Part shown: in pieces, positions 11,515 through 27,453 of the stretch | Layout: every line of letters begins with the position of its first letter | How positions within the stretch are numbered: the stretch's first letter is position 1 | DNA from: Omnitrophica bacterium RIFCSPHIGHO2_02_FULL_51_18 | GTDB lineage: Bacteria > Omnitrophota > Gorgyraeia > 2-02-FULL-51-18 | NCBI GenBank assembly: GCA_001804125.1 | Contig: MHFI01000036.1 | Coordinates: 23,123-87,122 of the forward strand | Reading direction: 5' to 3' | DNA: 64,000 bases | Made by a program: the position numbers and the translations under genes | Notes under the pieces: generated by a model | Seen by the model: the letters and a program-made list of their open reading frames with translations, nothing else | Databases searched by the model: none | Told to the model about the DNA's origin: nothing

Positions 11515-11589
11515 TGCGTATCTCCTTTGTTATATTATGATATAAAGATATATCATATTATCGTTCGCTTGTCAATACATCCATGGTGT

Positions 11590-12438: not shown

Positions 12439-12448
12439 GAAATCGAAG

Positions 12449-13059: not shown

Positions 13060-13074
13060 CTTAGCCGTCTAAAG

Positions 13075-13101
13075 CAAGTATACGCTATCAGCGTATACTT
13101 G
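13075..13101. promoter_or_regulatory. Candidate HigBA operator: 12-bp perfect inverted repeat CAAGTATACGCT-atc-AGCGTATACTTG.
   Basis: Lies 16 bp upstream of the higB start. Confidence 0.5.
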
Positions 13102-13138
13102 TCAAGTGAGGTTGTAATTTCATATATAAACCATAATG

Positions 13139-13372
13139 CTAAGTCGTGTACTGCGCGGCGTAAGTATCAAGCAGTGTTCGAATGATTTTTTGATAGGGGG
13201 CGTGATATTTACGCGCCGTTTTCTTAAAGAACCGAACACTTGATTTGCTCAACACCATCGTAACTTTCACCGGCTCTTCCTTGAAGGCCAGCTTCTCAGG
13301 CGGAGGCAGAAAGTCCTTGATGATACGAAGCTTACCTATGGGTTCATTCGTGTATTTTATTTTGTGATTCAT
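13139..13372 (-). CDS. brnA: BrnA-type antitoxin.
   Basis: FLPPPEKL...VTMVLSKSSVRFFKKTARKYHAPYQKIIRTLLDTYA matches the BrnA family pattern. Confidence 0.6.
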   Translation of the reverse strand: MNHKIKYTNEPIGKLRIIKDFLPPPEKLAFKEEPVKVTMVLSKSSVRFFKKTARKYHAPYQKIIRTLLDTYAAQYTT

Positions 13373-13447
13373 AAATCCCCTTTCCTCTGCGCCAATAACC
13401 GGCTCCAAAGATACGGATTGCGTTCGCCCGATAAGTGAAACGTACTG

Positions 13448-13720: not shown

Positions 13721-16030
13721 CTAATTCCCGGCGATATGGAGCGGGTCGGAAATGCTTGCGCCCTCCGATAATTCCACGACAAAGCCTTCGTCGCCGCCGC
13801 TGTAGGTACCTTGGAAGGCAGTGACGGGCGTCTCCCAATCGGTGGTATTCGGAGAATACCCGCCGGCGTATATTTCGCTGCCATCGACAGCCAGAGATCT
13901 GACATAGTCGTTACCCACACCGCCTAACCAGTGGCCCCCGTTAAGAGTAGGAGTAGTGCCGTCAGCGATTTTCACGACGAAGCCTTCAGCACCGCCGCTG
14001 TGGTTACTGCCCGACTGGAAAGGGACACTCTCCCAACTGGTGGTACTGCCAGAATACCCGCCAGCGTATATTTCATCGCCGTTGACAGCCAGATCGTAAA
14101 TTGCATCACCACCTGTGCCGCCCAACCACTGGCGCCAGTTAAGAATGGGGGCAGCGCCGTCAGCGATCTCCACAACAAACCCCTCCCAGCTGCCGCTGAA
14201 ATTACCCTGAGAGGGGTTAACAGGTGTCTCCCAACCAGCGGAATTGTCAGAATATCCGCCGGCGTATATTTCATCGCCGTTAACAGCCAGGGCTCGAACT
14301 GAATCACTGCCTGTGCCACCTAACCACTGGCGCCAGTTAAGAACGGGCCAGGGACTGCCCTCAACAATCTCCGCGACAAAACCTTCGCGGCCGCCGCTGT
14401 AGTCACCCCCGTAGCTTGTGAAATTATCCCAATTAGTGGATTGGGAAGAATACCCACCGGCGTATATTTCATCACCGTTAACAGCCAGTGCATCAATAGA
14501 ATCATCACCACCTGAGCCGCCCAACCATTGGGCCCATGCAATAGCGGGTGTAGCGCCGTCAGCGATTTCCACGACAAAGCCTTCCATTCCTCCGGAACCC
14601 CCGTAGTCGCCTCGGAAGTAGGTTTCACCCCCCCACGTGTCGCTACCTTCAGAATCCCCGCCGGCGTATATTTCATCGCCGTTAACAGCCAGGGCTTGAA
14701 CTGAATCTTGACCTGCGCCGCCTAACCACAGGCCCCAGCCAATGGTGGGGACAGCGCCGTCAGCGATTTCCACGACAAAGCCTTCGTTGATACCGTTGAA
14801 TGGCTCTTGGAAGGCGGGACCATCCCAACTGTTGTCACTGGTCGAAGACCCGCCGGCATAAATTTCATCGCCGTTGACGGCCAGGGCGTAAACTCCATCA
14901 TTACCCGATCCACCCAACCACTGACCCCAGTTAATTGTGGGGGTAGCGCCGTCTGCGATCTCCACGACAAAGCCTTCGGTGCCGCTGCTGTGGGTGCCCT
15001 TAAAGGAGGCGAGACTATCCCAATTGGAAGCGTTACCGGACCACCCGCCGGCATAAATTTCATCGCCGTTGACGGCCAGGGCGTAAACTCCATCATTACC
15101 CGATCCACCCAACCACTGACCCCACTGCAAGGTCGGGTCAATGAGGAGTGGGTAGGCGGACAAAGGCTCGTGGATGGAAAGAAGGAGTGTTCGTTCATCC
15201 AGAAGGACGGGGTCTACTTTTTTCTGCGCGCCGTCCGCCGTCCAGTAGAGAAAGGGTTTGATGCGGGCCACAAGCTCATCTTTTTCAATAGCGACCCCTT
15301 TGGGGAGCGCTTTCCGCACTGTGTCGATGAGTTCCCGCCTTTTTTTGGTGTCTCTCGGGTCAATGCCCTGGATATTGACGATCGCCTTTTGGTAGATGCC
15401 CACAGAGCCGTCTTCGTCTTTTTTGAATTTGAATATCTTGGGATAAGAAGCTCTCCCGGCCGAAAGAGACCAGACATACTGAGTCACGTCATTGTGGTTC
15501 GGCCTTTTGGCGTAGAGCCATTCATTAAGAACTACTTCCCCTTCCCCTGTCCTGCCCTGGGCGTAGGCAATGGCGTCCGTGGGGCGCTCGTAAACCAGCC
15601 AGTCGCGGTTAGGGGCGCTAAAAACTCTTTGAGTGAATGGCTGGCCGGTATTCTTGAGGGTAAGGTCAAAAGAGACTGTTTCCATGCCAAGTTCAAGCAG
15701 GGTGCGTTGTTTCACGGTGGTGGAGAGAGTGTCGAATAAGGTGCGGATTTTAACGAAAACATTTTTTTGTCCGGGCGCTCTCCTAATGGCGAGCTCGCTC
15801 GTAAAGCCCGTGCCGCTGGGACCCTGCTCTATTCTTTCCGCGGAGACGATACGGCCATTCATTAGGCTTTGTTTTTCGTCCATGAGGCGTAGGGCGGATA
15901 CGAGTTCCTGTGAGAGCCCCGGCAGTGACAAAGGCAGGAGCGCCTCAGGCCCCGCCGCGACAAGATTTGCCTTGACGATGAGTAGCGAACCGAGCGCCAC
16001 TAGCCACAAGACAGCTTTTCTTTTATGCAT
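13721..16030 (-). CDS. Secreted SBBP beta-propeller repeat protein (8 repeats), a candidate pilus-associated adhesin.
   Basis: Signal peptide. Repeated WGQWLGGSGNDGVYALAVNGDEIYAGG units. Lies at the distal end of the T4P gene cluster. Confidence 0.7.
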   Translation of the reverse strand: MHKRKAVLWLVALGSLLIVKANLVAAGPEALLPLSLPGLSQELVSALRLMDEKQSLMNGRIVSAERIEQGPSGTGFTSELAIRRAPGQKNVFVKIRTLFDTLSTTVKQRTLLELGMETVSFDLTLKNTGQPFTQRVFSAPNRDWLVYERPTDAIAYAQGRTGEGEVVLNEWLYAKRPNHNDVTQYVWSLSAGRASYPKIFKFKKDEDGSVGIYQKAIVNIQGIDPRDTKKRRELIDTVRKALPKGVAIEKDELVARIKPFLYWTADGAQKKVDPVLLDERTLLLSIHEPLSAYPLLIDPTLQWGQWLGGSGNDGVYALAVNGDEIYAGGWSGNASNWDSLASFKGTHSSGTEGFVVEIADGATPTINWGQWLGGSGNDGVYALAVNGDEIYAGGSSTSDNSWDGPAFQEPFNGINEGFVVEIADGAVPTIGWGLWLGGAGQDSVQALAVNGDEIYAGGDSEGSDTWGGETYFRGDYGGSGGMEGFVVEIADGATPAIAWAQWLGGSGGDDSIDALAVNGDEIYAGGYSSQSTNWDNFTSYGGDYSGGREGFVAEIVEGSPWPVLNWRQWLGGTGSDSVRALAVNGDEIYAGGYSDNSAGWETPVNPSQGNFSGSWEGFVVEIADGAAPILNWRQWLGGTGGDAIYDLAVNGDEIYAGGYSGSTTSWESVPFQSGSNHSGGAEGFVVKIADGTTPTLNGGHWLGGVGNDYVRSLAVDGSEIYAGGYSPNTTDWETPVTAFQGTYSGGDEGFVVELSEGASISDPLHIAGN

Positions 16031-16043
16031 GGCTCCCCTTTCT

Positions 16044-16079
16044 TTCCCCTTAATAATAGATCACGGGGACACCCATTTT
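16044..16079. repeat. REP-like perfect palindrome GGGGACACCCATTTTCCATTGGAAAATGGGTGTCCC.
   Basis: 36-bp hairpin in the spacer between two co-directional genes. May act as a terminator. Confidence 0.8.
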
Positions 16080-16106
16080 CCATTGGAAAATGGGTGTCCC
16101 TTCTTG

Positions 16107-16871
16107 TTAAGAATAGTTCAGCAGGTACCCGCAGTAATATTTATCGGTCGTGCCATTATAGGTCAGCGTGATGATATCGACCTTGCCCGCGCCCGAGAGC
16201 GTGGGGGCCGCCGCGCCGCCGGGCCACGAGACATTGCCCGGCCAGGTGATGGTCCACGAACCCGCGCCGCCCTGCCGTATCGTGAGGAGGTACCGTCCGC
16301 CGTCGACCGGGTTCGAAAGCGTAACCGTGCGGTTACCCGGGATCGTGACGTACTGAACATTCCCGTTATTCCAATTCACCTCGACCGGCTCCGTATCGCC
16401 CAACGTGTGTTTAGTCGAGTTGTACTGCCCCTCGACCAGAATGTTGCCGCTAAATGAGCTGGCGGCGGATCTGACATTGAAGTTGTCCATGACCCAGCCG
16501 TTTGTGCCGTCTCCTCCCCAGAACCTCAAATTTTGTGTTGCCCCCGCGTCACCGTCGAACCCAACGTCAAACGCCCCCGCGCCGCCCCCGAATTCTCCCA
16601 TAAGAATTGTGTCGCCGTCGGAGGAGGCGATTCTCACATTTCCCGAGACATCGAGTTTGCTGGCCGGCGTCGTCGTCCCGATTCCGACGTTGCCGGTCGA
16701 GGTGGCGAGCACTGTCTTGTCGGTTGAGGAGAGTTCTTTATAATTTCCGTAGGGCGAGGGGTAATAGGCGGTGATTTCAACCTCTTCGGCGAGGGCGCCG
16801 GGCGCGATGAAAATGAAAGACAGTAAGAGCGCCGCCGGTGCGTTAAGAAAAAGACGGTTTATTTTTATCAT
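16107..16871 (-). CDS. Secreted Gly/Thr-rich protein with a tail-fibre-like NVGIGTTTPASKLDV motif.
   Basis: Signal peptide MIKINRLFLNAPAALLLSFIFIAPGALA. No enzymatic motifs. Confidence 0.45.
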   Translation of the reverse strand: MIKINRLFLNAPAALLLSFIFIAPGALAEEVEITAYYPSPYGNYKELSSTDKTVLATSTGNVGIGTTTPASKLDVSGNVRIASSDGDTILMGEFGGGAGAFDVGFDGDAGATQNLRFWGGDGTNGWVMDNFNVRSAASSFSGNILVEGQYNSTKHTLGDTEPVEVNWNNGNVQYVTIPGNRTVTLSNPVDGGRYLLTIRQGGAGSWTITWPGNVSWPGGAAAPTLSGAGKVDIITLTYNGTTDKYYCGYLLNYS

Positions 16872-16893
16872 TGGAAATACCTCCTTAATCTTT

Positions 16894-17316
16894 TTAAAGG
16901 CCGATAGACCGGCATACCACTGTTCTCAGGTCCGTTGTTGCGTCTACCTTGCTTATGGTGATAAAAACATCATCCGCCGCTGTTTGTGCCGCATCCGCCG
17001 TATCCGTGTCAAGATCGATGTAGTAAACCACCGGACTCGGCGGCCAATCCGGGTCCGTAAAATCCCCCCCTGATGACCCGGGGGGCACCTGGTTTCTCCT
17101 TATTCGCTCGAAGGCGTCCACCATCCCCGACTGCGCGCGGTAGTAATTCCTTACACGTGCTCCGACGACCGATTCGGTCACTTTTCTCTGCTGAAAACCG
17201 GTGTCGACGGCGAATAGGGCGCTGAGGGTGAAGAGAAACAGCATCATTATCGCGAAGATCATCGCGACGCCTCGTTGGCTGCGTATCTTAGCTTGCTGAC
17301 GCATGTGCGGTGACAT
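16894..17316 (-). CDS. PilX-like minor pilin / pilus assembly protein.
   Basis: N-terminal hydrophobic helix GVAMIFAIMMLFLFTLSALFAV. Position in the pilin gene string. Confidence 0.5.
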   Translation of the reverse strand: MSPHMRQQAKIRSQRGVAMIFAIMMLFLFTLSALFAVDTGFQQRKVTESVVGARVRNYYRAQSGMVDAFERIRRNQVPPGSSGGDFTDPDWPPSPVVYYIDLDTDTADAAQTAADDVFITISKVDATTDLRTVVCRSIGL

Positions 17317-17902
17317 TCCTTTTAAGGATAACGGTCCTGGTCGGGGACCCTGCCTTTGCGGCCAATTGTATCCTGATCGTGTTACTGTTCACCTGAGTGA
17401 AAGAAGTCTGCGCGGGGTCAAGCCTTAGAGTGGGTCCGACCTCATCATCCGCCGCGCCCGCTGAATTACCACTCTCTCCACCGGGCCCGGCGGCGCCTTT
17501 AGTCCAATAAAGCCTGCGTTCACCGCTGCCGTCAATGAATATGTATTTCACCCAAGTATCGTCCCCGGTATCCATAGTTCCGATAGGCTGTCCACCTGCT
17601 GTCGTATTGGGGGTCCCGTCTAATTTATAATCCCAGCGAAGCTTAAGCTGGGCGCTCACGGTGTCGTTTGCCTGGGGGCCCCCATCCCCCACCTCCACCA
17701 AGTTGGCGTTAGCCACCTTCCTTGCGATATGGTCCAGCGCGGTATAAGATTCGACAAGCCCTATGTTGGCTTGACCGCTGACTAGATTGCGCGCGCCCGA
17801 AATATAAACGGTGCTGGCCCCCAAAGCGACTACGGACAAGAGCCCAATCGAAATCAGGAGCTCCGCCAAAGTCAATCCCGCTTCACTTGTCGATCTTACC
17901 AC
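17288..17902 (-). CDS. Minor (pseudo)pilin with a prepilin N-terminal methylation motif.
   Basis: GLTLAELLISIGLL (G/xTLxE). Confidence 0.6.
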   Translation of the reverse strand: MVRSTSEAGLTLAELLISIGLLSVVALGASTVYISGARNLVSGQANIGLVESYTALDHIARKVANANLVEVGDGGPQANDTVSAQLKLRWDYKLDGTPNTTAGGQPIGTMDTGDDTWVKYIFIDGSGERRLYWTKGAAGPGGESGNSAGAADDEVGPTLRLDPAQTSFTQVNSNTIRIQLAAKAGSPTRTVILKRNVTAHASAS

Positions 17903-18240
17903 GAGGTGGTTGCCTCCACCTTCTTATAATCCTTCCCGCCCACCGGAAATGTTTGGAAGCGGTTGGTATAAGTCGTCAGGCCAATGGTCGAGTCGTTGTC
18001 CGCCACAGTATCGTTCCAGGTGTCTTCCCCCCAGGTTTGATAGACCGTGTCTAGTTTTGTTTGGGCGCTTTGGTAGGAGACCGCGCTTTCAGGCTTTGTA
18101 TAGCGGCCGGCGTTAACAAATGCCGCGTAAAGACCCGCGCCCGCAATAGACAGGATAGTCCCGGCGACGAGGATCTCGAGCAGAGAGAAGCCCTTTTGAT
18201 GACGGCGGCGGTTGAAGATTTTTTTGGCGTTCTTTGTCAT
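17896..18240 (-). CDS. Minor pilin (PilV-like).
   Basis: KGFSLLEILVAGTIL prepilin motif. Confidence 0.65.
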   Translation of the reverse strand: MTKNAKKIFNRRRHQKGFSLLEILVAGTILSIAGAGLYAAFVNAGRYTKPESAVSYQSAQTKLDTVYQTWGEDTWNDTVADNDSTIGLTTYTNRFQTFPVGGKDYKKVEATTSW

Positions 18241-18608
18241 GTTTGCGTTATCTGTCCGGTTGCGTAGGTCATGGTAAACGTTGTGGTTGTGCTTCCTACC
18301 GTGCGCGACATCTCGGAGATGGCCGTACCGACGGATGTGATCGTGTAATAAACGGGACTTGCCAAGTCCGTGTTGAGATTAGTGTTTATGGTAGCTACGG
18401 GAGGATTTGAACCGCCGTCCCAGAAAGCGCCTCCGTTGTTGAGGGCATAGATCTTTTGGGCCGTGTATAGGATGTTGAGGTAGGTGTACGGCTCATTTTG
18501 GTAGGAGCGCTCGATCTGCCCGGTGTAAATCGGCACCGCAGCCCCAGCCATGACCGCCAAAATAGCCAGAACGACCAACACCTCAACAAGCGTAAATCCT
18601 TTTAGTTT
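18237..18608 (-). CDS. Type IV pilin (second pilin; start taken at MKLKGFTLVEV).
   Basis: GFTLVEVLVVLAILAV class III signal. Confidence 0.7.
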   Translation of the reverse strand, partial: KLKGFTLVEVLVVLAILAVMAGAAVPIYTGQIERSYQNEPYTYLNILYTAQKIYALNNGGAFWDGGSNPPVATINTNLNTDLASPVYYTITSVGTAISEMSRTVGSTTTTFTMTYATGQITQT

Positions 18609-18722
18609 CATCGGATACATCCACCTAATCAAGAGTATACAGCGAGAAAATGTATAATTCAACGAGCAACACTAATAAATATTATGTGAAAATTATCAAC
18701 GGCACACACAACGCCAGTCAAA

Positions 18723-18764
18723 CAAACAGGACGTAACACCTCAAAAGGTATCACGTCCTGTTTG
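18723..18764 (-). terminator. Rho-independent terminator downstream of pilA.
   Basis: Minus strand: CAAACAGGACGT-loop-ACGTCCTGTTTG followed by TTTGACTGG. Confidence 0.55.
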
Positions 18765-18790
18765 TGGCAAAAAACTCGGTAATGAATTCT

Positions 18791-19237
18791 CTATACCAAC
18801 TTGCCTGCCCCTACCAATGTGTATCCTGTGGCCGTACAGCTGAGAGTCACCGTGTCACCCGCCACTAGCGGTGCAACTGCGCCAGCGGCTACGCAATTCC
18901 AAGTAGTTGCGGAGGTAGCGTCTAGTGTGTAGGTGAAGTTAGGTACTTGACCCGCCGCCGCGGTATTGGGATTATAATCTATTAAAGTAAACGTCGCGCC
19001 CGTATAAGAGTTAGGGTTTGTCGTATTTGTTTGATAGTAAACCCCCATAGCGGCCTTAACCACGTCCAGGTGATCGATAGCTTCCTTTTTGTAACCTTTC
19101 ATTTTTTGATTGGCTAGAATAGGAACAACCGCCGCGGCGATTACACCCAGCACCACTAACACTATTAAGATTTCGACGATGGTGAAGCCTTTTATCCCCA
19201 GTTTCCTTTTTTTACCAAGGATTTTTGATATTGACAT
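18791..19237 (-). CDS. pilA: Major type IV pilin PilA.
   Basis: Leader MSISKILGKKRKLGIKG then FTIVEILIVLVVLGVIAA. Has its own promoter and terminator. Confidence 0.8.
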   Translation of the reverse strand: MSISKILGKKRKLGIKGFTIVEILIVLVVLGVIAAAVVPILANQKMKGYKKEAIDHLDVVKAAMGVYYQTNTTNPNSYTGATFTLIDYNPNTAAAGQVPNFTYTLDATSATTWNCVAAGAVAPLVAGDTVTLSCTATGYTLVGAGKLV

Positions 19238-19280
19238 ACACCCCCCTTTTTAAGAGTAAAACATGCTTATTTCTACTTAG

Positions 19281-19309
19281 AATATATCATTAAAGATAAT
19301 TAAAGTCAA
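19281..19309 (-). promoter_or_regulatory. Sigma70-like promoter for pilA (TTGACT-17-TATATT).
   Basis: Read on the minus strand. Strong GGGGGG ribosome-binding site 7 nt before the ATG. Confidence 0.45.
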
Positions 19310-19317
19310 GAAATACT

Positions 19318-20532
19318 TTAATGAATCGCCTCACTTAGAGAAAACATGGGGACAAAAAGAGCATAGGCAATGATACCTACAAAAGCGCCAACAATGATCA
19401 GGACCAACGGCTCGACTAAAATGCCGATGCGCGTGCTTAACGTGTCGACTCTTTCTGCATAAAATTCAGAGGCCTTGGAGATCATAGCGGGCAGACTGCC
19501 GCTCTCTTCCCCTATCGTGACAAGCTGGATAAACATGGGTGAGAAGATGGGATCCGTTTGAAGACTGGCCGAAAGCGTCTGCCCCCGCTGGATCCCTTTT
19601 GTTGCGGCAAGGAACGCGTTCTCAAAAACAGAATTGCCGGCGGCGCGTGATGCGATCTCAAGGCTTTGAATCAAATTCACGCCGCTTTTTATCAAGGTCG
19701 ACAAGATGATGCAGATCCTTGCGTGAATAAAATCATTCAGGCCTTCTCCCAGCACCGGGACGAGCAATAGAAGCCGATCCAACTGCCGGCGGCCCACGGA
19801 AGTCGAAATGTATTTCTTCGATAAGAAAAAAAGGCCGATGGCCATAAACGCGATGAAAAAAATATAATGCTGGATTACGGTGCTAATGTTGATGATCGCC
19901 ATCGTAAGCGGCGGAAGCTTAGCGTTAAATTGTGAGAATATTTTCTGGAATATCGGTATGATCCGTAACATGAAAAGGAGCAAAACACCCACAGAGCAAA
20001 TCACGAGAATGCAGGGGTAAATCAACGCCGATATTATCTTTTTCATCAGAAGATGATTGGACTTGACATTCTTGGCCAGCTCTTTTAAGACCATGGGCAC
20101 GGAACCGCTCGTCTCCCCCGCCTCTACAAGGAATAACCAAAGTTTCGGAAAATGTTTTGGATGCCTGGCCATGCTGTCCTTAAGGGTCGAGCCCGCCCTT
20201 ATGTTCGAGATGATCGCGCCGATCACTTCGTTCATCCTTTGACTTTCCGTTAAAAGAGCGATAATTTCGAGTGACCTTACGAGCGGAATCCCCGCTTCTA
20301 GAAGCATGGCAAGCTGGTCCAAAAAGAACAAAGTATCCTCGGACCTTATCCTGCGACGGCGCAGTTTCCGCCGGCGGGAAGGGTCCGAAGCGCTCCCCAG
20401 CGAAGCCAGCTTTATGACAAGAAGTCCGCGGTTTTGAAGAGCTGTTACGGCTAGACGTTCACTCTCTGCCTCTTGGATCCCTTGAACCATTTCGCCCGAT
20501 GAGGCGCGGGCGTTGTAATTATAGACGGGCAT
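19318..20532 (-). CDS. pilC: Type IV pilus platform protein PilC (GspF family).
   Basis: 404 aa, two T2SSF domains, three transmembrane helices. Confidence 0.85.
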   Translation of the reverse strand: MPVYNYNARASSGEMVQGIQEAESERLAVTALQNRGLLVIKLASLGSASDPSRRRKLRRRRIRSEDTLFFLDQLAMLLEAGIPLVRSLEIIALLTESQRMNEVIGAIISNIRAGSTLKDSMARHPKHFPKLWLFLVEAGETSGSVPMVLKELAKNVKSNHLLMKKIISALIYPCILVICSVGVLLLFMLRIIPIFQKIFSQFNAKLPPLTMAIINISTVIQHYIFFIAFMAIGLFFLSKKYISTSVGRRQLDRLLLLVPVLGEGLNDFIHARICIILSTLIKSGVNLIQSLEIASRAAGNSVFENAFLAATKGIQRGQTLSASLQTDPIFSPMFIQLVTIGEESGSLPAMISKASEFYAERVDTLSTRIGILVEPLVLIIVGAFVGIIAYALFVPMFSLSEAIH

Positions 20533-20552
20533 GGGGCAGCCTTTTTGATTGC

Positions 20553-22277
20553 TTAAGCGGTTTCATAGCCGCCTGAAAGCGTGACACGGAATATCTCTTC
20601 CAAAGATGTCTCACCCTCGATAACTTTTTGATAGCCGCTCTCTTCGAGTGTCTTCATGCCCGCCTTACGCGCCTCGGCCCGGATGTGGACCAAAGAGGCC
20701 CTCTGTGTAACGAGTTCCTGAATGCGCTCGTTGATGACCATGATCTCATAGATCGCGGTCCGTCCGCGGTACCCTGTGTGGGAGCAGTGATCGCAACCCT
20801 TCGTTTTATAAAGCGTCTTTTTTTCGACTTGCAGTAATTTTGGCAATTGCGATGCGGAAGGCTCATAAGACTGTTTGCATTTTTGACAGAGACGGCGTAC
20901 AAGCCTTTGTGCCACTATCATGAGAAGTGAGTTCGAGACAAAAAAGGGCTCAATGCCGATATCGATCAGGCGGTTCAGCGTGGAGCAGGCATCATTGGTG
21001 TGCAGTGTGCTGAACACGAGATGCCCCGTCATCGCCGCGCGGATGCAGACTTGCGCTGTTTCGGCGTCCCGGATTTCGCCCACTAAAATTATGTCGGGGT
21101 CCTGCCGCAGGAACGCCCGAAGGCCTGAGGCGAATGTGAGACCGATCTGGGGTTTTACCTGAACCTGATTCACGCCTTCCAATTGGTATTCGACGGGGTC
21201 TTCAACGGTCAGGATATTTTGGCCGGAAGATTTGATGTCGTTTAATGCCGCGTAAAGCGTGGTGGTCTTACCGCTTCCGGTGGGTCCGGTGATGAGGATG
21301 AGGCCGTAGGGTTTTCGAATAACGCCGCGAAACTGTTTCAACTCGTGAGCCTCGAAACCCAGCGTGCCCAGGTTAAGCGAGACAGCCTCGCGGTCTAGGA
21401 TGCGCAGAACCATTTTTTCTCCGTGCACCGTCGGGATGGTCGATACGCGGAAATCCACAGTCCGGTTCTCGATCGTGGCCCGGAAGCTGGCATCCTGAGG
21501 GAGCCTTTTCTCGGCGATGTCCATGCGGGACAGGATCTTAAGGCGTGAAATCAAGGGCAATTGCATGGATTTGTCGGGCGCGGGCACTTCATGCAATACC
21601 CCGTCAATGCGGAAACGCAGGTTCAATCGGCCCGGAAAAGGCTCGATGTGGATATCGCTTGCGCGTTCCTTGATGGCCTGGCGTATCAGAAGGTCTGTCA
21701 GTTTGATCACCGGCGTCTTGCCGGCGCTGGCCACCAGGCTGTCCAGCGAAAGCGGCTCATCGGCGCCTTCTTCCACAACTGCGACCGGAGCGTCATAAGA
21801 GGCTTCGACGGCTGATTGCAGCATCCCCCCTTCCCCGTAAAATCCGTCGATTCCCGTTTGTATGTCGGAAGGAGTGGCAATGATGCGAGTGATATGACAG
21901 CCCGTGATTTTTCTTAAATTATCCAAAACCACGATGTCCGTGGGGTCCGCGATCGCGACCGTGAGAGAATTTTCGTGGCGGTATAAGGGCAGTACCCTGT
22001 GTTTTCGGGCGGTTTCCTCCGGAAGCAATTTATTTAAGTTTTGCTCGGCCGCGGGTTTTAAAAGCCCGCTTTCAAGAGACGCGTAAGGGATGTTCATTTG
22101 CTGGCCGAGCGTGGCGGCCACGTCTTTTTCCGTGATGGCGCCAAGCTCCATCAGGATTTGTCCGATCAGCTGGCCGGGGCTTTCTTTTTGAGCTTCCAGC
22201 GCTTTTTCTATTTGTGACGGCGTGACAACCCCGTTTTTTAATAAGATCTCGCCGAACCTAAGGTACTCTCTGCGCAT
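20553..22277 (-). CDS. pilB: Type IV pilus assembly ATPase PilB (GspE family).
   Basis: N-terminal T2SE_N domain, Walker A GPTGSGKTTT, tetra-Cys zinc motif CQKC...CDHC. Confidence 0.9.
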   Translation of the reverse strand: MRREYLRFGEILLKNGVVTPSQIEKALEAQKESPGQLIGQILMELGAITEKDVAATLGQQMNIPYASLESGLLKPAAEQNLNKLLPEETARKHRVLPLYRHENSLTVAIADPTDIVVLDNLRKITGCHITRIIATPSDIQTGIDGFYGEGGMLQSAVEASYDAPVAVVEEGADEPLSLDSLVASAGKTPVIKLTDLLIRQAIKERASDIHIEPFPGRLNLRFRIDGVLHEVPAPDKSMQLPLISRLKILSRMDIAEKRLPQDASFRATIENRTVDFRVSTIPTVHGEKMVLRILDREAVSLNLGTLGFEAHELKQFRGVIRKPYGLILITGPTGSGKTTTLYAALNDIKSSGQNILTVEDPVEYQLEGVNQVQVKPQIGLTFASGLRAFLRQDPDIILVGEIRDAETAQVCIRAAMTGHLVFSTLHTNDACSTLNRLIDIGIEPFFVSNSLLMIVAQRLVRRLCQKCKQSYEPSASQLPKLLQVEKKTLYKTKGCDHCSHTGYRGRTAIYEIMVINERIQELVTQRASLVHIRAEARKAGMKTLEESGYQKVIEGETSLEEIFRVTLSGGYETA

Positions 22278-22286
22278 CGGGCCCTT

Positions 22287-23954
22287 TTAGCGGTTCCATT
22301 TCACAGTCTTCGGGTCCATTTCATTGAGCGCTTGAGCGATGCGCTTGTTACGCTCGGCCGGCAGGGAAAGTTTCGTGACAGGTTCTTTGGGTCCGGCCAA
22401 AACAGCTTCCAGGCTCCTGTCCATTTCCTCCCCTATAAACTGATCGAGCATGCGCTTGACCGCAAGGTCTTTTGCGTAAACGGTCTGTTTCCGGGACTCA
22501 CCCGGGCGGACGATGTGGGGCGTGATAAATATAAGAAGCTCCCGATCGACGCCGTCACTTTCGTCGTAGCGGAACGCATAGCCCAGGATCGGGATCTTTC
22601 CCAAAAACGGAATCCTTTTCTTGAGCGAAATTTCACTCGTGTCAAGCAGGCCCCCGATCACAAGCGTCTCATGGTTGTTGACCCTGACCAGCGTGCGTAT
22701 GGAGCGGCGTGTGGGGTCCAGAAAAATACTGGAAAAAAACGAGGAAGGCGCCACCGTGGTAACGGTCGGCTCCAAAAATAAGGCGACCGAATCGTCTTCA
22801 TTGATTTGAGGCGTCATTTTGAGGTCGATTCCCACCTGCGTCCTTTCCGCCTGATTGGCACTTGTGACCGCAGTGCCTTCCGCGGTCGTGGTGGTGGCGG
22901 TGTTCGCGATCGCGGCGTCCGTGATGAGTTTAATTGTGGCCGCTTCGTTGTTGAGTGTCAGAACCCGAGGCCTGGAAAGGATCTTCGTGTCATTGTCGGA
23001 GATAATCATATGCAGGGTAGCCGTGAAATTCGCGGCGCTAAATGTGCCGAGCGTCAAGGATTCCTGCGTGGGATCCGGCGCGTCCTCGTCCCCTATGCGG
23101 TTTCGGGTCTGAAACCGTTTGCTCAAAAAATTTTCAGTGAACGGAAAACCGGTGGTCCTCGATCCGGCCGTAAAAGTGGCCAGCGCCCCGTCCGTCCCTC
23201 CCCACTCGACCCCCAGATCGCTGATCAAGTCCTTTTTGACTTCCATCAAGTAAACCTCCAACAACACTTGAGGGGTCGGCACGTCTATTTTTTCAATCAC
23301 TTGCGCGATCTGTCTCAGTTTCTCGGGCGTGTCCGTAACAATGAGGCTATTGGTGTTTAAATCGAGCGTCACTTTTCCGCTTTCCGATAAAAGGCTTGCG
23401 ACGAGCTGGTCCACGCCGCGTTGCGTGCTTGATTTGGAAGAAGGAAACTGCTGAGAACTCGTGCCGGATCCGGTACTGCCTTGTGAGCCGGATGCCAGCT
23501 CAGCCGCCCGTGTCAGGTCGAAGACGGTTTTTTGGCCGCCGATGTCCAGGGGCGAGGTGGAGAGCCGCATGTATTTCAAGAAAAAAACCCGGGTCTGGAG
23601 CTTCTTGGAGGTGGAATTGGCCGGGTACACCACAAAAATATTGCTCCCCTCGGCCTGGTAGTACTCCAGATTGTTCGCCGTCATCAGACTCTCCAACGCG
23701 TCTTTCACGGTCACGTTTTCGAAGTAAACCGTCACGGTTTTCAGTTCCACTTCGCTTGAGGCTACGAAATTGAGACCGGATTGCTGTGAGAATATCTTGA
23801 GCAGCTGCTTCAAGGTGACGTTTTCGAAATCAAGCGAAACAAGCTGTTGGGCGGCTTTTTCCGGCGCTTCTTGCGCGATTGCCGAAAACCCGGCTGAAGC
23901 ATGGAGGGAAAAACACAAAAGCGTCAAAGCCTGAGCAAACCGGCGGCGTCTCAT
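22287..23954 (-). CDS. pilQ: Secretin PilQ.
   Basis: Signal peptide, N domains, C-terminal secretin motif VIGGLLDTSEISLKKRIPFLGKIPILGYAFR. Confidence 0.85.
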   Translation of the reverse strand: MRRRRFAQALTLLCFSLHASAGFSAIAQEAPEKAAQQLVSLDFENVTLKQLLKIFSQQSGLNFVASSEVELKTVTVYFENVTVKDALESLMTANNLEYYQAEGSNIFVVYPANSTSKKLQTRVFFLKYMRLSTSPLDIGGQKTVFDLTRAAELASGSQGSTGSGTSSQQFPSSKSSTQRGVDQLVASLLSESGKVTLDLNTNSLIVTDTPEKLRQIAQVIEKIDVPTPQVLLEVYLMEVKKDLISDLGVEWGGTDGALATFTAGSRTTGFPFTENFLSKRFQTRNRIGDEDAPDPTQESLTLGTFSAANFTATLHMIISDNDTKILSRPRVLTLNNEAATIKLITDAAIANTATTTTAEGTAVTSANQAERTQVGIDLKMTPQINEDDSVALFLEPTVTTVAPSSFFSSIFLDPTRRSIRTLVRVNNHETLVIGGLLDTSEISLKKRIPFLGKIPILGYAFRYDESDGVDRELLIFITPHIVRPGESRKQTVYAKDLAVKRMLDQFIGEEMDRSLEAVLAGPKEPVTKLSLPAERNKRIAQALNEMDPKTVKWNR

Positions 23955-24295
23955 AGGTCCTCCTCTTTTTTCATACGAAGTAAAATAATTTTACCATTTT
24001 CCGTGAGCGTGACGGCATTCTTTTCGATGGCCGTTACTTGGGCGTTTCCCACCCGGCCGCCCACCCCTACCACCGCTTCGCCGATGACTGCCTGCGGTTT
24101 TTCGCTGTTCCAGACAATGCCTTTTAAAAGCGGCTGTTCCATTTGGATGGGCGCTGTTTGCCGGTTTTCTGCGTCGGACGGCGCGGCCGACGCGGGTTTT
24201 TGAAAAGGGTCCCTGAATTGCCGGCCTGTGTATTCCAGAGCGTCGCAGGGAGCCGCAAAAAACAAGCAGATGAGAGAAATAATCAAGCGGCTCAT
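23951..24295 (-). CDS. pilP: PilP-like pilot/alignment lipoprotein.
   Basis: 114 aa, signal peptide, position between pilO and pilQ, 4-bp overlaps. Confidence 0.55.
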   Translation of the reverse strand: MSRLIISLICLFFAAPCDALEYTGRQFRDPFQKPASAAPSDAENRQTAPIQMEQPLLKGIVWNSEKPQAVIGEAVVGVGGRVGNAQVTAIEKNAVTLTENGKIILLRMKKEEDL

Positions 24296-24858
24296 GAAAA
24301 GATTTTCCTAAGCGGCTCCGAAGGGTAATAAACGCTGACCGAAAGCGACGCGTTCAACGCAGGCTGTTCACCGGCGCTTTCGGCAAACCGCAAACTCAGG
24401 CCGGAGAGCCTTATCTGAGGCACGGCCTGCTCCACGCGGCTCATAAAATCCCCCAGCGCATGGTATTGGCCCCTGGCGGTGACGCTCAAGGACACTTTGT
24501 CATAGTCGGGGAAACGGCTCTCCCCCCGCGGCGCGAACGAAGTGATTTCCACTCCTGTCTCTTTGGCGACGCCGTTTAGGGTGTCCACCACCCATGACAC
24601 GTCCCGGGTGTTTGCAAAAAAAGAGCTGTATTTTTTTAGCCCGTTTTCAAGCCTGATGAGCCCTGCCAGTGAGTCCCGCTTCAACTCGATGTTTTGCGAC
24701 TCTTTCTTCAGCGCTTTTATTTTTTGAAGATCGGGCGTTACGACAAAGTGTCCCCCGGCCCACAGGCCTATGGCGCCGAATAAGACGGCGGCCAGGGCCA
24801 GGCGGTGATGCCCGGCCATCTTCAACGCTTGTTTAAGCAGTGCGTCAGCATCAAGCAT
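24292..24858 (-). CDS. pilO: PilO-like inner-membrane alignment protein.
   Basis: Single N-terminal transmembrane helix, coiled coil, position. Confidence 0.6.
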   Translation of the reverse strand: MLDADALLKQALKMAGHHRLALAAVLFGAIGLWAGGHFVVTPDLQKIKALKKESQNIELKRDSLAGLIRLENGLKKYSSFFANTRDVSWVVDTLNGVAKETGVEITSFAPRGESRFPDYDKVSLSVTARGQYHALGDFMSRVEQAVPQIRLSGLSLRFAESAGEQPALNASLSVSVYYPSEPLRKIFS

Positions 24859-26398
24859 GGCGGTTCGTTCCTTCCAGCGAAAATGTCATCGTCGCTTCCG
24901 TTTTTACCCGGGTCTTTTGGGCGGATGAAATTTTGATGTCGTCGAGTCCGTTCATGAGACCGGGGCTTTTCCTGAGTTCCGCAACCCATCGATTCAGATT
25001 TTGAAGGCCATCCTCGGATTCCGCCGCAAACATTTGGCCTTCGAGCATAAGAGAAAAGACGCGCTGATCGTTCGGGGCCTCCGCATCGGAATAGGCCAGC
25101 GCAGTCAGGTAAATATTGTCATGGATCATTCGGGCCACCTCACCCATTTTTTGCGTAACATACACCTTTTGGCCGAAAAGAACAGCCAGTGTTTTTTGCT
25201 TTTGCAGGAGCTCCGTTTGCGCGGTTTGGATGCTCTCGTCGGAAAGCTCCAAGCCGGCTAAAATCGCGGGCTTCGGGAGCGCCGCCGTCTGAGCCTGCAG
25301 TTCTTTTTTTTGCGTGCCGAGGCTGGAAAACAACAGCCCATGAATCACGAGGAACACCGCACCCAACCCCAAGGCTTCGTAGGATAAACAACGTTTAAAC
25401 GCGGCGGTCGAAGCCGGCGTCTGCTCGTTTTTCAGCGCCTCCCCTGCCGCCAAATTGGCTGTTTTGGCCGTGCGCTTCAAGCGGGTTTTGCGCAGTGCCA
25501 GGCCGAGCAAAACGGCCAGCGCCGGACCCAGGTTCGGAAAACCTTTAAGCCGCGTGCCGGGAACCGGGGTTTCGATCGGCAGATCAAAGTCCGCTTTTAT
25601 GTTTTTCAAGAGTTCCGGAAATTCGACTTTAGGGGAGATAAAAAAAACAAATTTTTCGACGGTTTCATTTTTGTAATTTTTAGCAAAATAATCGAGCGAT
25701 AACTGGATCTCCGTGCGCAAAGACGGATAATCCGGTTGTCCCTCGTTGGCCACGGGCAGCACGAAGTCCCTTTGCAACAGAATCATGCCCTCTCTGGCCA
25801 GCAGAATGTCGGCCGCGCCGTCTTCCTGCAGGTCGACGAGCGCCAGCGTGTCGGAGAGCTTGGCGCCGCCGCCCGAAAAACGGTAAGTCCGGATGAGCGG
25901 AAACGCCGCCGGCTCCACGGAAACCGAGAGCGCTCCTTCCCTGTAAAGAAAGCTCAATAAGTGATCGACAATGGCTTTTCTGGCCGCATAAAATACGACA
26001 CTCATTTGTTTTTCTTTTCTGACGGCAGAAATTTCCGCGTTGTGGTAGAGGTCCCGGATATCCGACGGCAGATATTTCTGCGCTTCAAAGTACGCGGATT
26101 GCCGCCGCTCGCTTTTGGGCAGTACCGGCATCTGAAAAAAACGTATCAGCGTATCGGCGCCGGAGAGCGCCACAAAAACTTTTTTGCCCTTGACCGGGAT
26201 TTTTTGGACGGCGGCTTTCAACGCTTCGCCCAGATTCAGCGCGTCGAACTGAGCAAAGCTGTCGGTATTTTCTATTTTTTTTATGCTCACTTCCGCAAAA
26301 TCCGCCAATTGATGACTTCCGCCGATGTTTTGCGTTATCTTCGCAACGCTGATACGGTTGGTCCCCACATAGATGTTGACCGACGGCGTGAATATCAT
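24851..26398 (-). CDS. pilM: Fused PilM (actin-like ATPase fold) and PilN protein.
   Basis: 515 aa. N-terminal 330 aa are PilM-like. An internal transmembrane helix ALGLGAVFLVIHGLLF is followed by a PilN-like coiled coil. Confidence 0.7.
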   Translation of the reverse strand: MIFTPSVNIYVGTNRISVAKITQNIGGSHQLADFAEVSIKKIENTDSFAQFDALNLGEALKAAVQKIPVKGKKVFVALSGADTLIRFFQMPVLPKSERRQSAYFEAQKYLPSDIRDLYHNAEISAVRKEKQMSVVFYAARKAIVDHLLSFLYREGALSVSVEPAAFPLIRTYRFSGGGAKLSDTLALVDLQEDGAADILLAREGMILLQRDFVLPVANEGQPDYPSLRTEIQLSLDYFAKNYKNETVEKFVFFISPKVEFPELLKNIKADFDLPIETPVPGTRLKGFPNLGPALAVLLGLALRKTRLKRTAKTANLAAGEALKNEQTPASTAAFKRCLSYEALGLGAVFLVIHGLLFSSLGTQKKELQAQTAALPKPAILAGLELSDESIQTAQTELLQKQKTLAVLFGQKVYVTQKMGEVARMIHDNIYLTALAYSDAEAPNDQRVFSLMLEGQMFAAESEDGLQNLNRWVAELRKSPGLMNGLDDIKISSAQKTRVKTEATMTFSLEGTNRHA

Positions 26399-26440: not shown

Positions 26441-26809
26441 TCAACGGTCGCTCTCCAGCACAAATTCAGGTTTGACGATGGGCTCTGAAGGAAACGGAAA
26501 CGTGGCTACTTCGTAAACTCCGGCCAGGGTCCTTTTGACAGCCTGGCCGGCGCCGTGAATAGGTCCCCAGGTGATGGCGGCAAGAAAGTTCTGTTCGCTC
26601 GCCACCGATTCCACTCCTTTCGGCAGATCCAACCAGCCGAACGCAACGTTGGACAACCCGCGGCCAAGTTTTTTGCCCGCACCGCTTCCGTAGTCCTCCC
26701 TGGCGATGTCACTCGGGGAGTTTTCAGTCATCGCGCACACGGAACCCGCCGCGACCGTAAAAACGACCAGCGCCGCAAAAAAGCTTTTATGAATAAGATG
26801 CCGGCTCAT
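26441..26809 (-). CDS. Small secreted protein resembling the exosortase-associated TIGR04073 family.
   Basis: Signal peptide. GRGLSNVAFGWLDLPKG motif. Confidence 0.4.
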   Translation of the reverse strand: MSRHLIHKSFFAALVVFTVAAGSVCAMTENSPSDIAREDYGSGAGKKLGRGLSNVAFGWLDLPKGVESVASEQNFLAAITWGPIHGAGQAVKRTLAGVYEVATFPFPSEPIVKPEFVLESDR

Positions 26810-26831
26810 GATTTCCTCCTATGTTTTAAGT

Positions 26832-27428: not shown

Positions 27429-27453
27429 AAATCTCTTTTTTCAATAACCTATT

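What the first reader, a model, noticed from the sequence alone, without database searches (positions are those of the whole stretch)
13721..26398. Complete T4P cluster with a fused PilM-PilN, five pilins, and two secreted candidate tip adhesins in place of PilY1
The gene order pilMN-pilO-pilP-pilQ-pilB-pilC-pilA, followed by four minor pilin genes, is compact, with translationally coupled overlaps. PilM and PilN are fused into one 515-aa protein. pilA has its own sigma70-like promoter and a downstream hairpin terminator, as expected for a highly expressed major pilin. Where PilY1-like adhesins usually sit, the cluster carries a Gly/Thr-rich secreted protein with a phage-tail-fibre-like motif and a 769-aa secreted SBBP beta-propeller protein. 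No pilT retraction ATPase is present in this window. The beta-propeller protein may serve the PilY1 role as tip or anchor adhesin in this lineage.
Basis: partly seen in the sequence, partly recalled or inferred. Interest (0 to 1): 0.5.

Follow-up and report, generated by a model that had tools for sequence, protein, structure and literature searches.

The report
Pilus gene cluster with tail-fibre-like adhesin
An uncultured Omnitrophota bacterium has a type IV pilus gene cluster in which a phage-tail-fibre-like secreted protein with a previously undescribed N-terminal tag sits where the usual tip adhesin PilY1 would be, an arrangement that recurs in many related genomes, while the neighbouring beta-propeller protein is not part of that conserved system.

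Summary
Thirteen minus-strand genes encode a fused PilM-PilN, PilO, a PilP-like protein, secretin, ATPase, platform, five pilins and two signal-peptide proteins. No PilT paralogue lies in the window.

The fusion is genuine: it matches PilM and PilN, not GspL, and it belongs to a large family of about 500-aa proteins.

The 254-aa protein (p254) is a chimeric tail-fibre-like protein. It resembles Bdellovibrio MAT fibres and phage fibres. Directly after its signal peptide it carries the module EE-x-I-T-x-YYPSPYGxYxEL.

That module defines a multi-copy family in Omnitrophota and Elusimicrobiota and is absent from 2.9 million viral contigs. One to four such genes sit directly after minor-pilin genes in at least 12 distinct related loci. 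Of 143 distinct loci, 13 are cluster-linked, against about 1% expected.

I therefore read p254 as a pilus-coupled modular adhesin or cargo, docked or exported through its N-terminal module.

The 769-aa protein (p769) is a CylK/SBBP-type seven-bladed propeller, not PilY1-like. A strong hairpin separates it from p254. It is absent from all 158 related fibre loci, and elsewhere it lies in toxin-antitoxin-rich islands. It is probably not a PilY1 substitute.

The parts
24851..26398 (-). Fused PilM-PilN (515 aa). It has an actin-like PilM domain at about residues 1-300, a degenerate INLLP-type linker motif (ANLAAGE), a TM helix at about 340-362, and a PilN-like periplasmic domain.
   Evidence: TIGR01175 pilM scores 55.7 bits, N-terminal only. 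A family profile hits PilM 3JC8_M at E 2.4e-41 and PilN 3JC8_N at E 1e-4, with no GspL hit. 1352 library hits, with nearly all of the top 150 being 480-560 aa and aligned end to end. NLxP column and hydrophobic peak.
24292..24858 (-). PilO/GspM-like protein (188 aa); overlaps pilMN by 8 nt.
   Evidence: PF04350 PilO at 6e-7 and PF10741 T2SSM_b at 1.9e-7. Conserved in L012, L013 and L014.
23951..24295 (-). PilP / GspC-HR-like small periplasmic protein (114 aa); assignment is mainly positional.
   Evidence: Only a weak T2SSC hit, E 0.005. A same-sized gene is conserved at this position in L013 and L014, with tblastn 35% identity and E 5e-9 for L013.
22287..23954 (-). Secretin (555 aa) with an N0 (STN) domain, one N domain and the secretin domain; no AMIN domains detected.
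   Evidence: Secretin 1.9e-40, Secretin_N 1.1e-11, STN 1.2e-6. GspD scores 229 bits against 221 for PilQ, both below cutoff.
20553..22277 (-). Extension ATPase (PilB/GspE type, 574 aa) with an N-terminal c-di-GMP-binding MshEN motif.
   Evidence: T2SSE 3e-145. PilB 628.8 bits against GspE 610.6. NF053729 c-di-GMP motif 56.8 bits, above its cutoff of 38.
19318..20532 (-). Platform protein PilC/GspF (404 aa).
   Evidence: T2SSF 3.1e-53, two repeats. GspF scores 306 bits and PilC 294 bits.
19281..19309 (-). Sigma-70-like promoter consensus upstream of pilA (TTGACT-17-TATATT with extended TG).
   Evidence: 10 of 12 matches. Sequence read. This is a consensus match only.
18791..19237 (-). Putative major pilin (148 aa) with leader ...GIKG|FTIVE.
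   Evidence: N_methyl 1.9e-4. Best NCBIfam hit is GspG at 44.6 bits, below cutoff. It has its own promoter-like site and a downstream hairpin.
18722..18765 (-). 20-bp-stem hairpin downstream of pilA, terminator- or attenuator-like, followed by UUUGUUUG.
   Evidence: RNA fold gives -42 kcal/mol for the 96-nt stretch, z -7.6, 0 of 200 shuffles as stable.
18237..18611 (-). Pilin 2 (124 aa from MKLKG|FTLVE), GspH/FimU-position pilin; its N-terminus is 40% identical to pilA.
   Evidence: N_methyl 6e-9. tblastn cross-hit to pilA. Called as 124 aa in L001.
17896..18240 (-). Minor pilin 3 (114 aa, GspI/PilV position).
   Evidence: N_methyl 9.7e-7. Homologues in L014 and L117.
17288..17902 (-). Minor pilin 4 (204 aa, GspJ/PilW position), leader EAG|LTLAE.
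   Evidence: N_methyl 4.6e-4. Homologues in L014 (37%, 6e-30) and L117.
16894..17316 (-). Minor pilin 5 (122-140 aa), PilX/GspK-like cap pilin lacking E5.
   Evidence: Weak PilX_N hit, 0.027. Homologues directly precede the fibre gene in L014, L027 and L117.
16107..16871 (-). p254, a Sec-exported tail-fibre-like protein. It has a signal peptide, the N-terminal module EEVEITAYYPSPYGNYKEL, the fibre motif GNVGIGTTTPASKLDV, and a phiTE_241_C-type tip domain.
   Evidence: PHROG tail-fibre hits. PDB hits to Bdellovibrio MAT fibres 8OL4 and 8OND. PF26209 in precomputed tables. The best C-terminal homologues are in phage contigs.
16065..16101 (-). Perfect 16-bp-stem palindromic hairpin in the 76-nt gap between p254 and p769.
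   Evidence: -29.8 kcal/mol, z -3.4. Listed as terminator-like on the plus strand. Sequence.
13721..16030 (-). p769, a secreted protein with an N-terminal beta-rich domain (about residues 60-300) and a seven-bladed SBBP/CylK-type beta-propeller (about 304-755). It is a neighbour, and probably not part of the conserved pilus module.

Best explanation
The locus encodes a type-IVa-like filament machine of an Omnitrophota-typical variant. PilM and PilN form one polypeptide, and the extension ATPase has a c-di-GMP-binding MshEN N-terminus.

Its set of four minor pilins (H/I/J/K-like) is genetically coupled to a Sec-exported, phage-tail-fibre-like protein, p254, instead of PilY1.

p254 belongs to a multi-copy family of mosaic fibre proteins. 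They share an invariant module at the very N-terminus of the mature protein, [ED][ED]-x-[ILV]-T-[ILV]-[ST]-T-Y-Y-P-S-P-[YR]-G-x-Y-x-[EN]-L. Their C-terminal tips vary: S74 chaperone type, phiTE_241_C type, glycine-rich and others.

Inferred mechanism. After signal-peptide cleavage the N-terminal module docks the (probably trimeric) fibre onto the minor-pilin priming complex in the periplasm. Filament extension then carries it through the secretin. There it acts as an exchangeable adhesive tip, or is handed to the cell surface, for attachment to host or prey cells.

What is shown: the gene content, the fusion, the homology of p254 to fibres, the family-wide N-terminal module, and its strong and repeated gene linkage to minor pilins.

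What is inferred: trimerisation, docking, tip location and the adhesive role.

p769 is a separately punctuated secreted propeller protein from a family that lives in variable, toxin-antitoxin-rich regions. It is not a conserved component. At most it is a partner of the phiTE_241_C tip domain.
For: Machine identity. The family profile hits PilM and PilN of T4aP systems and not GspL.

Fusion family. The fused family is large and matches the query end to end. It retains an NLxP motif like the N-terminus of PilN.

p254 identity. PHROG tail-fibre families match. MAT fibres 8OL4 and 8OND match through the GNVGIGT motif. The C-terminal domain is 52-55% identical to proteins in crAss-like and other phage-like contigs.

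N-terminal module.
- It is present in 22 of 114 homologues at residues 14-41, within about 10 residues of the predicted signal-peptide cleavage site.
- It has 161 confirmed sites in species genomes. Nearly all of the 80 best are from Omnitrophota, Elusimicrobiota or PVC-labelled MAGs, with up to 10 or more copies per genome.
- It has 271 confirmed sites in metagenomes.
- It has none in 2.9 million viral contigs.
- C-termini are mosaic: 18 of 71 have Peptidase_S74, 5 have Gly_rich_2 and 1 has Gp53-like_C.

Linkage.
- Fibre genes directly follow the PilX-like pilin in the window, L014, L027 and L117, with gaps of about 20-40 nt.
- They follow pilins in L013, L016 and L128.
- They lie between minor-pilin-like genes and pilMN in L168/172, L114/115, L150, L037 and L021. 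In L044 one lies directly upstream of pilMN.
- 13 of 143 distinct loci are cluster-linked, against about 1.3% expected (rough binomial P about 1e-8).

Precedent. The N-terminus of TcpF hooks onto trimeric minor pilin TcpB and acts as a T4bP secretion signal (PMC9565799). What anchors MAT fibres is unknown, and a link to type IV pili has been suggested (PMC10769870).
Against: - No experimental or structural test of docking was possible.
- About 90% of family members are encoded away from any pilus genes. The fibres may therefore be anchored elsewhere and merely co-regulated with the pilus.
- The module in p254 is followed by a very short stalk (254 aa in total), unlike the long MAT fibres.
- The machine cannot be cleanly separated from a T2SS-like exporter. 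GspD, GspF and GspG models score as well as or better than the pilus models, and no retraction ATPase is seen in the window.
- The linkage statistic uses a crude genome-size model, and the loci were selected by similarity to p254.
- The match to the MAT structures rests on a short repeat motif (E about 1e-3).
Confidence: 0.55

Rival explanations
1. One reading: the 769-aa beta-propeller protein, with p254, replaces PilY1 as the tip or anchor adhesin of the pilus.
For: It is secreted, lies two genes after the PilX-like pilin on the same strand, and contains a seven-bladed propeller, as the C-terminal domain of PilY1 does. A p769 homologue also directly follows a phiTE_241_C-tipped fibre protein in an Elusimicrobia genome. 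It might therefore act with p254.
Confidence: 0.1
2. The machine works as a type II secretion-like exporter with a short pseudopilus. The module-bearing fibres are its substrates. Their N-terminal module is the secretion signal, and they end up on the cell surface or released rather than on a pilus tip.
For: A single PilM-PilN polypeptide has the architecture of GspL. PilO hits GspM (T2SSM_b), the PilP-like protein hits GspC weakly, and the secretin, platform and major pilin score best or equal with the GspD, GspF and GspG models. No PilT lies in the window. The family is multi-copy, dispersed and shares one tag, as substrates of one sorting machine would. T4bP systems secrete TcpF through an N-terminal signal.
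Against: The family profile hits PilM and PilN and not GspL. The ATPase scores higher as PilB. The cap pilin is small and PilX-like, not GspK-like. The secretin has only one detected N domain after N0. pilA has a strong dedicated promoter-like site and hairpin, as an abundant fibre subunit would. T4aP are reported as expressed in a cultured Omnitrophota relative (PMC10066038).
Confidence: 0.25
3. The adjacency is not mechanistic. The fibres are independent surface adhesins exported by another route. They cluster with pilin genes only through co-regulation or because the locus is a hot spot for insertion of variable surface-protein genes. Prophage remnants are one such source.
For: About 90% of family members are elsewhere in the genome. 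The C-terminal domains are shared with phages. The flank of the window carries toxin-antitoxin modules and a Y1 transposase and varies between strains.
Against: The fibres sit directly after minor-pilin genes with gaps of about 20-40 nt. This holds in two different cluster architectures and in loci whose PilMN proteins are only about 25-32% identical, which is hard to explain by chance or recent insertion. The N-terminal module is absent from viral contigs, and the proteins carry Sec signal peptides that phage fibres lack.
Confidence: 0.12

Closest known systems
Type IVa pilus systems with PilY1 (Pseudomonas fimU-pilVWXY1E; Myxococcus minor-pilin/PilY1 clusters)
   Same: Both have PilM, N, O, P and Q, PilB, PilC, a major pilin and a set of four minor pilins that ends with a PilX-like cap. 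Both have a Sec-exported non-pilin protein encoded right after the minor pilins.
   Different: Here PilM and PilN are one polypeptide. The gene in the PilY1 position encodes a tail-fibre-like protein rather than a vWA plus PilY1-propeller protein. In relatives there are 1-4 tandem variable copies. PilT and PilD are not in the window.
Bdellovibrio bacteriovorus MAT (mosaic adhesive trimer) fibre superfamily (Caulton et al. 2024, PMC10769870)
   Same: Both are signal-peptide-bearing, phage-tail-fibre-like proteins with the GNVGIGTxxPxxKL fibre motif. Both have an invariant N-terminal part and swappable C-terminal tips, with or without an S74 chaperone. Both have many paralogues per genome and occur in lineages with a predatory or host-dependent lifestyle.
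   Different: The N-terminal YYPSPYGxY module was not among the 80 best genome matches, none of which is from Bdellovibrio. Homology of the two N-terminal domains was not tested. p254 is far shorter. The Omnitrophota fibres are gene-linked to minor pilins, a link not reported for MATs.
T4bP-dependent secreted proteins TcpF and CofJ, which bind the trimeric minor pilins TcpB and CofB (PMC9565799, PMC6048534)
   Same: These are operon-encoded, Sec-exported proteins whose extreme mature N-terminus is the signal that hooks onto the minor pilin at the filament tip. TcpF is a homotrimer when bound.
   Different: The pilus class differs (T4b against T4a-like). The sequences are unrelated. TcpF and CofJ are single-copy proteins, not a multi-copy mosaic fibre family. 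The interaction here is inferred only.
Type II secretion system (GspC-M)
   Same: One polypeptide combines the PilM-like and PilN-like parts, as GspL does. There is a GspM-like partner, a secretin without AMIN domains, five (pseudo)pilins, and no retraction ATPase nearby.
   Different: The fused protein is PilM and PilN by profile, not GspL. No GspC with a PDZ domain and no large GspK are present. The ATPase scores higher as PilB.
SBBP/CylK-type beta-propeller proteins (PF06739; CylK 7RON/7FH6)
   Different: There is no direct Pfam hit. The N-terminal beta-rich domain is different. There is no evidence of enzymatic function. The number of repeats varies widely across homologues (501-1259 aa).

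Membership tests
Type IVa pilus machinery | PilM (actin-like) and PilN alignment-subcomplex proteins | tested here: met
   The profile of the fused family hits PilM 3JC8_M (2.4e-41), 2YCH and 5EOU, and PilN 3JC8_N (1e-4). The two are fused into one 515-aa protein.
Type IVa pilus machinery | PilO, PilP and secretin PilQ | tested here: inconclusive
   PilO and the secretin are met. PilP rests on position, size and a weak GspC-HR hit at 0.005. The secretin scores equally as GspD and PilQ, both below the curated cutoffs.
Type IVa pilus machinery | Extension ATPase PilB and platform PilC | tested here: met
   T2SSE 3e-145 and T2SSF 3e-53. PilB scores 628.8 bits, just under the equivalog cutoff of 675.
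Type IVa pilus machinery | Major pilin and minor pilins with a class III signal peptide (G|FxxxE) | tested here: met
   N_methyl hits for four proteins. The leaders are visible in the sequence. The fifth is PilX/GspK-like without E5.
Type IVa pilus machinery | Retraction ATPase PilT and prepilin peptidase PilD | not testable with these tools
   Neither is in the 64-kb window. The rest of the genome could not be read.
Type II secretion system | GspL (T2SSL cytoplasmic domain plus GspL_C) and GspC with HR and PDZ domains | tested here: not met
   No GspL hit in Pfam, NCBIfam or the PDB profile search; PilM and PilN are hit instead. The 114-aa PilP-like protein has no PDZ domain.
Type II secretion system | Pseudopilins GspG-K, including a large GspK | tested here: inconclusive
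   The best NCBIfam hit of pilA is GspG at 44.6 bits, below the cutoff of 88.85. The cap pilin is only 122-140 aa with a weak PilX_N hit.
PilY1 / PilC tip adhesins (tested for p769 and p254) | PilY1-type beta-propeller domain (PF05567) | tested here: not met
PilY1 / PilC tip adhesins (tested for p769 and p254) | Conserved position directly after the minor-pilin genes across related genomes | tested here: met
   Met for the p254 family: at least 12 distinct loci. Not met for p769: 0 of 158 loci.
MAT / phage tail-fibre-like adhesins (p254) | Fibre repeat motif and homology to tail-fibre families | tested here: met
   PHROG tail-fibre families score 3e-7 to 1e-3. 8OL4 and 8OND match through GNVGIGTTTP..KL.V.
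MAT / phage tail-fibre-like adhesins (p254) | Invariant N-terminal part with swappable C-terminal tips; many paralogues per genome | tested here: met
   N-terminal module. Mosaic C-termini. At least 7-10 loci per genome in several MAGs and SAGs.
MAT / phage tail-fibre-like adhesins (p254) | Homotrimeric fibre, and homology of the N-terminal domain to that of Bdellovibrio MATs | not tested
   No multimer prediction was available.
SBBP beta-propeller (PF06739) (p769) | Match to the SBBP repeat model; propeller fold | tested here: inconclusive
   There is no direct Pfam hit. Remote homologues (E 3e-45 to 1e-4) carry PF06739. The model is a seven-bladed propeller with pLDDT 84.9, top match CylK.

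The most novel reading that the evidence does not exclude
The N-terminal TTYYPSP(Y/R)GxY module is a new sorting and docking tag. It loads interchangeable, phage-tail-fibre-derived trimeric adhesins onto the minor-pilin tip of a type-IVa-like filament, or exports them through it. This would give ultra-small, host-dependent Omnitrophota and Elusimicrobiota a pilus with swappable receptor-binding tips. It would also identify the long-sought kind of surface anchor for MAT-like fibres.
Probability: 0.35. Interest if true: 0.8.

Novelty: new variant of a known kind. Interest (0 to 1): 0.6.

Why it matters
Omnitrophota are abundant, uncultured, ultra-small bacteria thought to attach to or prey on other cells. 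Type IV pili are already proposed as their attachment device (PMC10066038), but what recognises the host is unknown.

This analysis finds a conserved gene linkage between minor pilins and a multi-copy family of tail-fibre-like proteins. The family has one invariant N-terminal tag and variable tips. That points to a concrete, testable recognition system.

It also bears on an open question from Bdellovibrio: what anchors MAT fibres on the predator surface. The authors of that work raised a possible link to type IV pili (PMC10769870).

If the tag is a pilus docking or secretion signal, it extends the TcpF/CofJ principle from T4b pili to T4a-like systems. It would also show phage receptor-binding modules being reused on a bacterial filament.

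I found no mention of tail fibres in the two Omnitrophota genome papers I searched, and no paper containing the motif in this sense.

Tried and rejected
- Single-sequence AlphaFold2 of PilMN gave a useless model (pLDDT 33). The fusion was settled by a profile search instead.
- The word-indexed homologue search for PilMN found only two distant PilM proteins. The exhaustive HMMER scan was needed.
- A genome scan with PilC as a single query found nothing. PilMN alignments A3 and A4 were too divergent to seed a locus search.
- The afdb50 fold library was not available.
- The local Pfam copy lacks PF26209 and PF26696, because the positive controls failed. Those two assignments rest on precomputed tables.
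- Rfam found only a tRNA-Met, so there is no c-di-GMP or other riboswitch near pilA.
- I considered that the fused PilM-PilN simply equals GspL and that the cluster is a T2SS. I rejected this as a membership claim but kept it as a functional rival.
- I considered a prophage remnant for p254. I rejected it because of the Sec signal peptide, the cell-specific N-terminal module and the conserved position.
- I considered p769 as a cassette partner of the phiTE_241_C tip. It is tightly adjacent to such a tip only in the window and in L003/L004, and it is not found next to the phage homologues of p254 (L009-L011) or in the one module-bearing fibre locus that has this tip and long flanks (L130). This remains a weak lead.

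Full report
SOURCE AND OBSERVATION

The 769-aa protein (p769) is 100% identical to a hypothetical protein of 'Omnitrophica bacterium RIFCSPHIGHO2_02_FULL_51_18'. The same locus occurs on two ENA metagenome contigs. The rest of the window carries housekeeping genes: ValRS, UvrB, GroEL, haem and folate genes.

Gaps are -8, -4, -4, 9, 20, 80, 128, -4, -7, -29, 22 and 76 nt. Domain searches confirm the assembly genes and four class III pilins, plus a fifth PilX/GspK-like pilin without E5.

pilA is preceded by TTGACT-17-TATATT with an extended TG. It is followed by a 20-bp-stem hairpin (z -7.6). tblastn with PilB finds no second ATPase of this family in the 64 kb, so there is no PilT here. The rest of the genome could not be checked.

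THE FUSION

Single-sequence models see only PilM at the N-terminus. An exhaustive HMMER scan of 1.84 billion cluster representatives found 1352 relatives, 447 of them at E<=1e-10. Nearly all of the best 150 are 480-560 aa long and match the query end to end.

A profile of 32 of them hits T4aP PilM from Myxococcus, Thermus and Pseudomonas (best E 2.4e-41). With positions 336-448 it hits Myxococcus PilN (E 1e-4). It does not hit GspL.

The family keeps an NLxP column between the PilM part and the TM helix. This resembles the N-terminal INLLP motif of PilN, which from my own knowledge is the peptide that binds PilM. In the window protein the motif is degenerate (ANLAAGE).

The fusion is therefore real, old and widespread in this lineage. 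It has the architecture of GspL but is not a GspL family member. The NCBIfam models do not cleanly separate T4aP from T2SS for the secretin, platform and major pilin. I file the machine as T4a-like and keep a T2SS-like mode of action as a rival.

The N-terminus of the ATPase passes the curated c-di-GMP-binding MshEN motif model (56.8 bits against a cutoff of 38).

THE 254-AA PROTEIN (p254)

It has a Sec signal peptide (…APGALA|EE). It hits PHROG tail-fibre families. Through GNVGIGTTTPASKLDV it also hits the crystal structures of the Bdellovibrio MAT fibres Bd2439 and Bd2133 (PMC10769870).

Its C-terminal 100 residues are 52-55% identical to proteins on a crAss-like phage contig and two other phage-like contigs. 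In precomputed tables this domain is PF26209, Phage_phiTE_241_C.

The part right after the signal peptide, EEVEITAYYPSPYGNYKEL, is not in those phage proteins. It is shared with cellular homologues.

THE N-TERMINAL MODULE DEFINES A FAMILY

The pattern YYPSP[YR]GxY[KQR] gave 161 confirmed sites in 185,579 species genomes. Nearly all of the 80 best are from Omnitrophota, Elusimicrobiota, 'Planctomycetia'-labelled MAGs and UBP3, and some genomes hold 7-10 or more loci. It gave 271 confirmed sites in metagenomes. It gave none in 2.9 million viral contigs.

The C-termini are mosaic. Of 71 members, 18 have the S74 tail-fibre chaperone domain, 5 have Gly_rich_2 and 1 has Gp53-like_C.

This is the design of phage fibres and of MAT proteins: a constant attachment end and a swappable binding end.

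LINKAGE TO MINOR PILINS

Two PilMN relatives on long contigs have the same pilMN-O-P-Q-B-C-pilins order, followed at once by two or three S74/PTL_trimer fibre genes carrying the module (L013, L014). L014 also shares the upstream synteny of the window.

Among the module loci, two arrangements recur.
- Arrangement A: pilins, then a PilX-like pilin, then 1-4 fibres. Seen in the window, L014, L027, L117 and L128. L016 is a pilin operon without the machinery.
- Arrangement B: minor-pilin-like genes, then 1-4 fibres, then pilMN-O-P-Q-B-C. Seen in L168/172, L114/115, L150, L037 and L021. In L044 a fibre gene lies directly upstream of pilMN.

After de-duplication, 13 of 143 loci (11 of 83 with at least 8 kb of sequence) carry homologues of this machinery. 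A crude 33 kb in 2.5 Mb model predicts about 1.3%, giving P about 1e-8.

Fibre genes follow the cap pilin by about 20-40 nt. The PilMN proteins of these loci are only about 25-32% identical to the query, so the linkage is old.

MECHANISM

Shown: the items above.

Inferred: the invariant module at the mature N-terminus docks the fibre to the minor-pilin priming complex, and filament growth carries it through the secretin.

The closest precedent is TcpF. Its flexible N-terminus hooks onto the trimeric minor pilin TcpB and serves as the T4bP secretion signal (PMC9565799). Exchangeable pilus tips in predation are known for Myxococcus Kil pili (PMC12075869).

The MAT paper states that the surface element bound by the invariant MAT N-terminal domain is unknown, and it mentions type IV pili as of interest. 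Omnitrophota T4aP are already proposed for host attachment, including in class 2-02-FULL-51-18 (PMC10066038). That paper and a 2026 genome survey do not mention tail fibres.

THE 769-AA PROTEIN (p769)

With a 23-sequence alignment AlphaFold2 gives pLDDT 84.9. The model has a signal helix, a beta-rich N-terminal domain (about residues 60-300) and a seven-bladed propeller (about 304-755).

Five homologues examined in other genomes lie among toxin-antitoxin, Fic or conjugation genes, not among pilus genes. No homologue occurs in any of the 158 fibre loci.

In the window a perfect 16-bp-stem hairpin, a promoter-like site and its own RBS lie in the 76-nt gap before it.

One lead remains. In an Elusimicrobia genome a p769 homologue directly follows a 1069-aa fibre with the same phiTE_241_C tip domain. 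p769 may therefore be a partner of that tip domain. This rests on two tight cases only.

VERDICT

It is not supported for the propeller protein.

The pilus cluster as such is a known kind in this phylum. The conserved coupling to tagged tail-fibre-like proteins appears to be undescribed, and it is testable.

Noticed in passing
window 20553-22277 (N-terminal 60 aa of the ATPase) and 35757-37475: The ATPase carries a tandem c-di-GMP-binding MshEN motif (NF053729, 56.8 bits against a cutoff of 38). A response-regulator-GGDEF-EAL gene lies 13 kb upstream and is syntenic in L014. The pilus may be under c-di-GMP control.
   Followed up: partly
window 26441-28104; L012 543-1513; L014 9038-9992: A TIGR04073 'exosortase-associated' small secreted protein and a BFN-domain bifunctional nuclease sit directly upstream of pilMN. 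The window also has a thermonuclease-like gene there. The BFN gene and a small-protein gene of similar size also sit directly upstream of pilMN in L012 and L014; the small protein there has no family hit and was not compared. This could hint at DNA uptake or nucleotide scavenging linked to the pilus.
   Followed up: partly
window 11003-13408; L001 and L002 downstream of the p769 gene: The flank beyond p769 holds RelE/HTH, ParE and MazE-type toxin-antitoxin genes and a REP-associated Y1 transposase. It differs between the two metagenome assemblies after the first toxin-antitoxin pair, so it is a strain-variable island.
   Followed up: partly
L002 3713-5478: In the second assembly of the same locus the pilB gene is called as two ORFs (382 and 206 aa). 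This is either a frameshift error or a pseudogenised ATPase in that strain.
   Followed up: no
L006 14519-15352; L007 18306-19202: The N-terminal beta-rich domain of p769 also exists as stand-alone proteins of about 280-300 aa near p769 homologues (29-38% identity). It behaves as an independent module of unknown function.
   Followed up: partly
L003 6767-13654 (Elusimicrobia GWA2_61_42): A 1069-aa fibre protein with a phiTE_241_C tip is followed 25 nt later by a 1217-aa p769 homologue. No pilus genes are nearby. The same pairing occurs in the window, so this may be a tip-plus-partner cassette.
   Followed up: partly
L027 7277-8116; L117 8317-9108: A 263-279-aa protein with an N-terminal TM segment, a long coiled coil and a conserved C-terminal domain follows the fibre array in two loci of arrangement A. 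It has no counterpart in the window.
   Followed up: no
L013 17288-18250; L027 2560-3401: The major pilin gene is duplicated in tandem, with near-identical copies, in some related clusters.
   Followed up: no
window 18692-18721: A second promoter-like site (TTGACT-18-GATAAT) lies just after the pilA hairpin and upstream of pilin 2. This suggests separate transcription of the minor-pilin and fibre genes.
   Followed up: no
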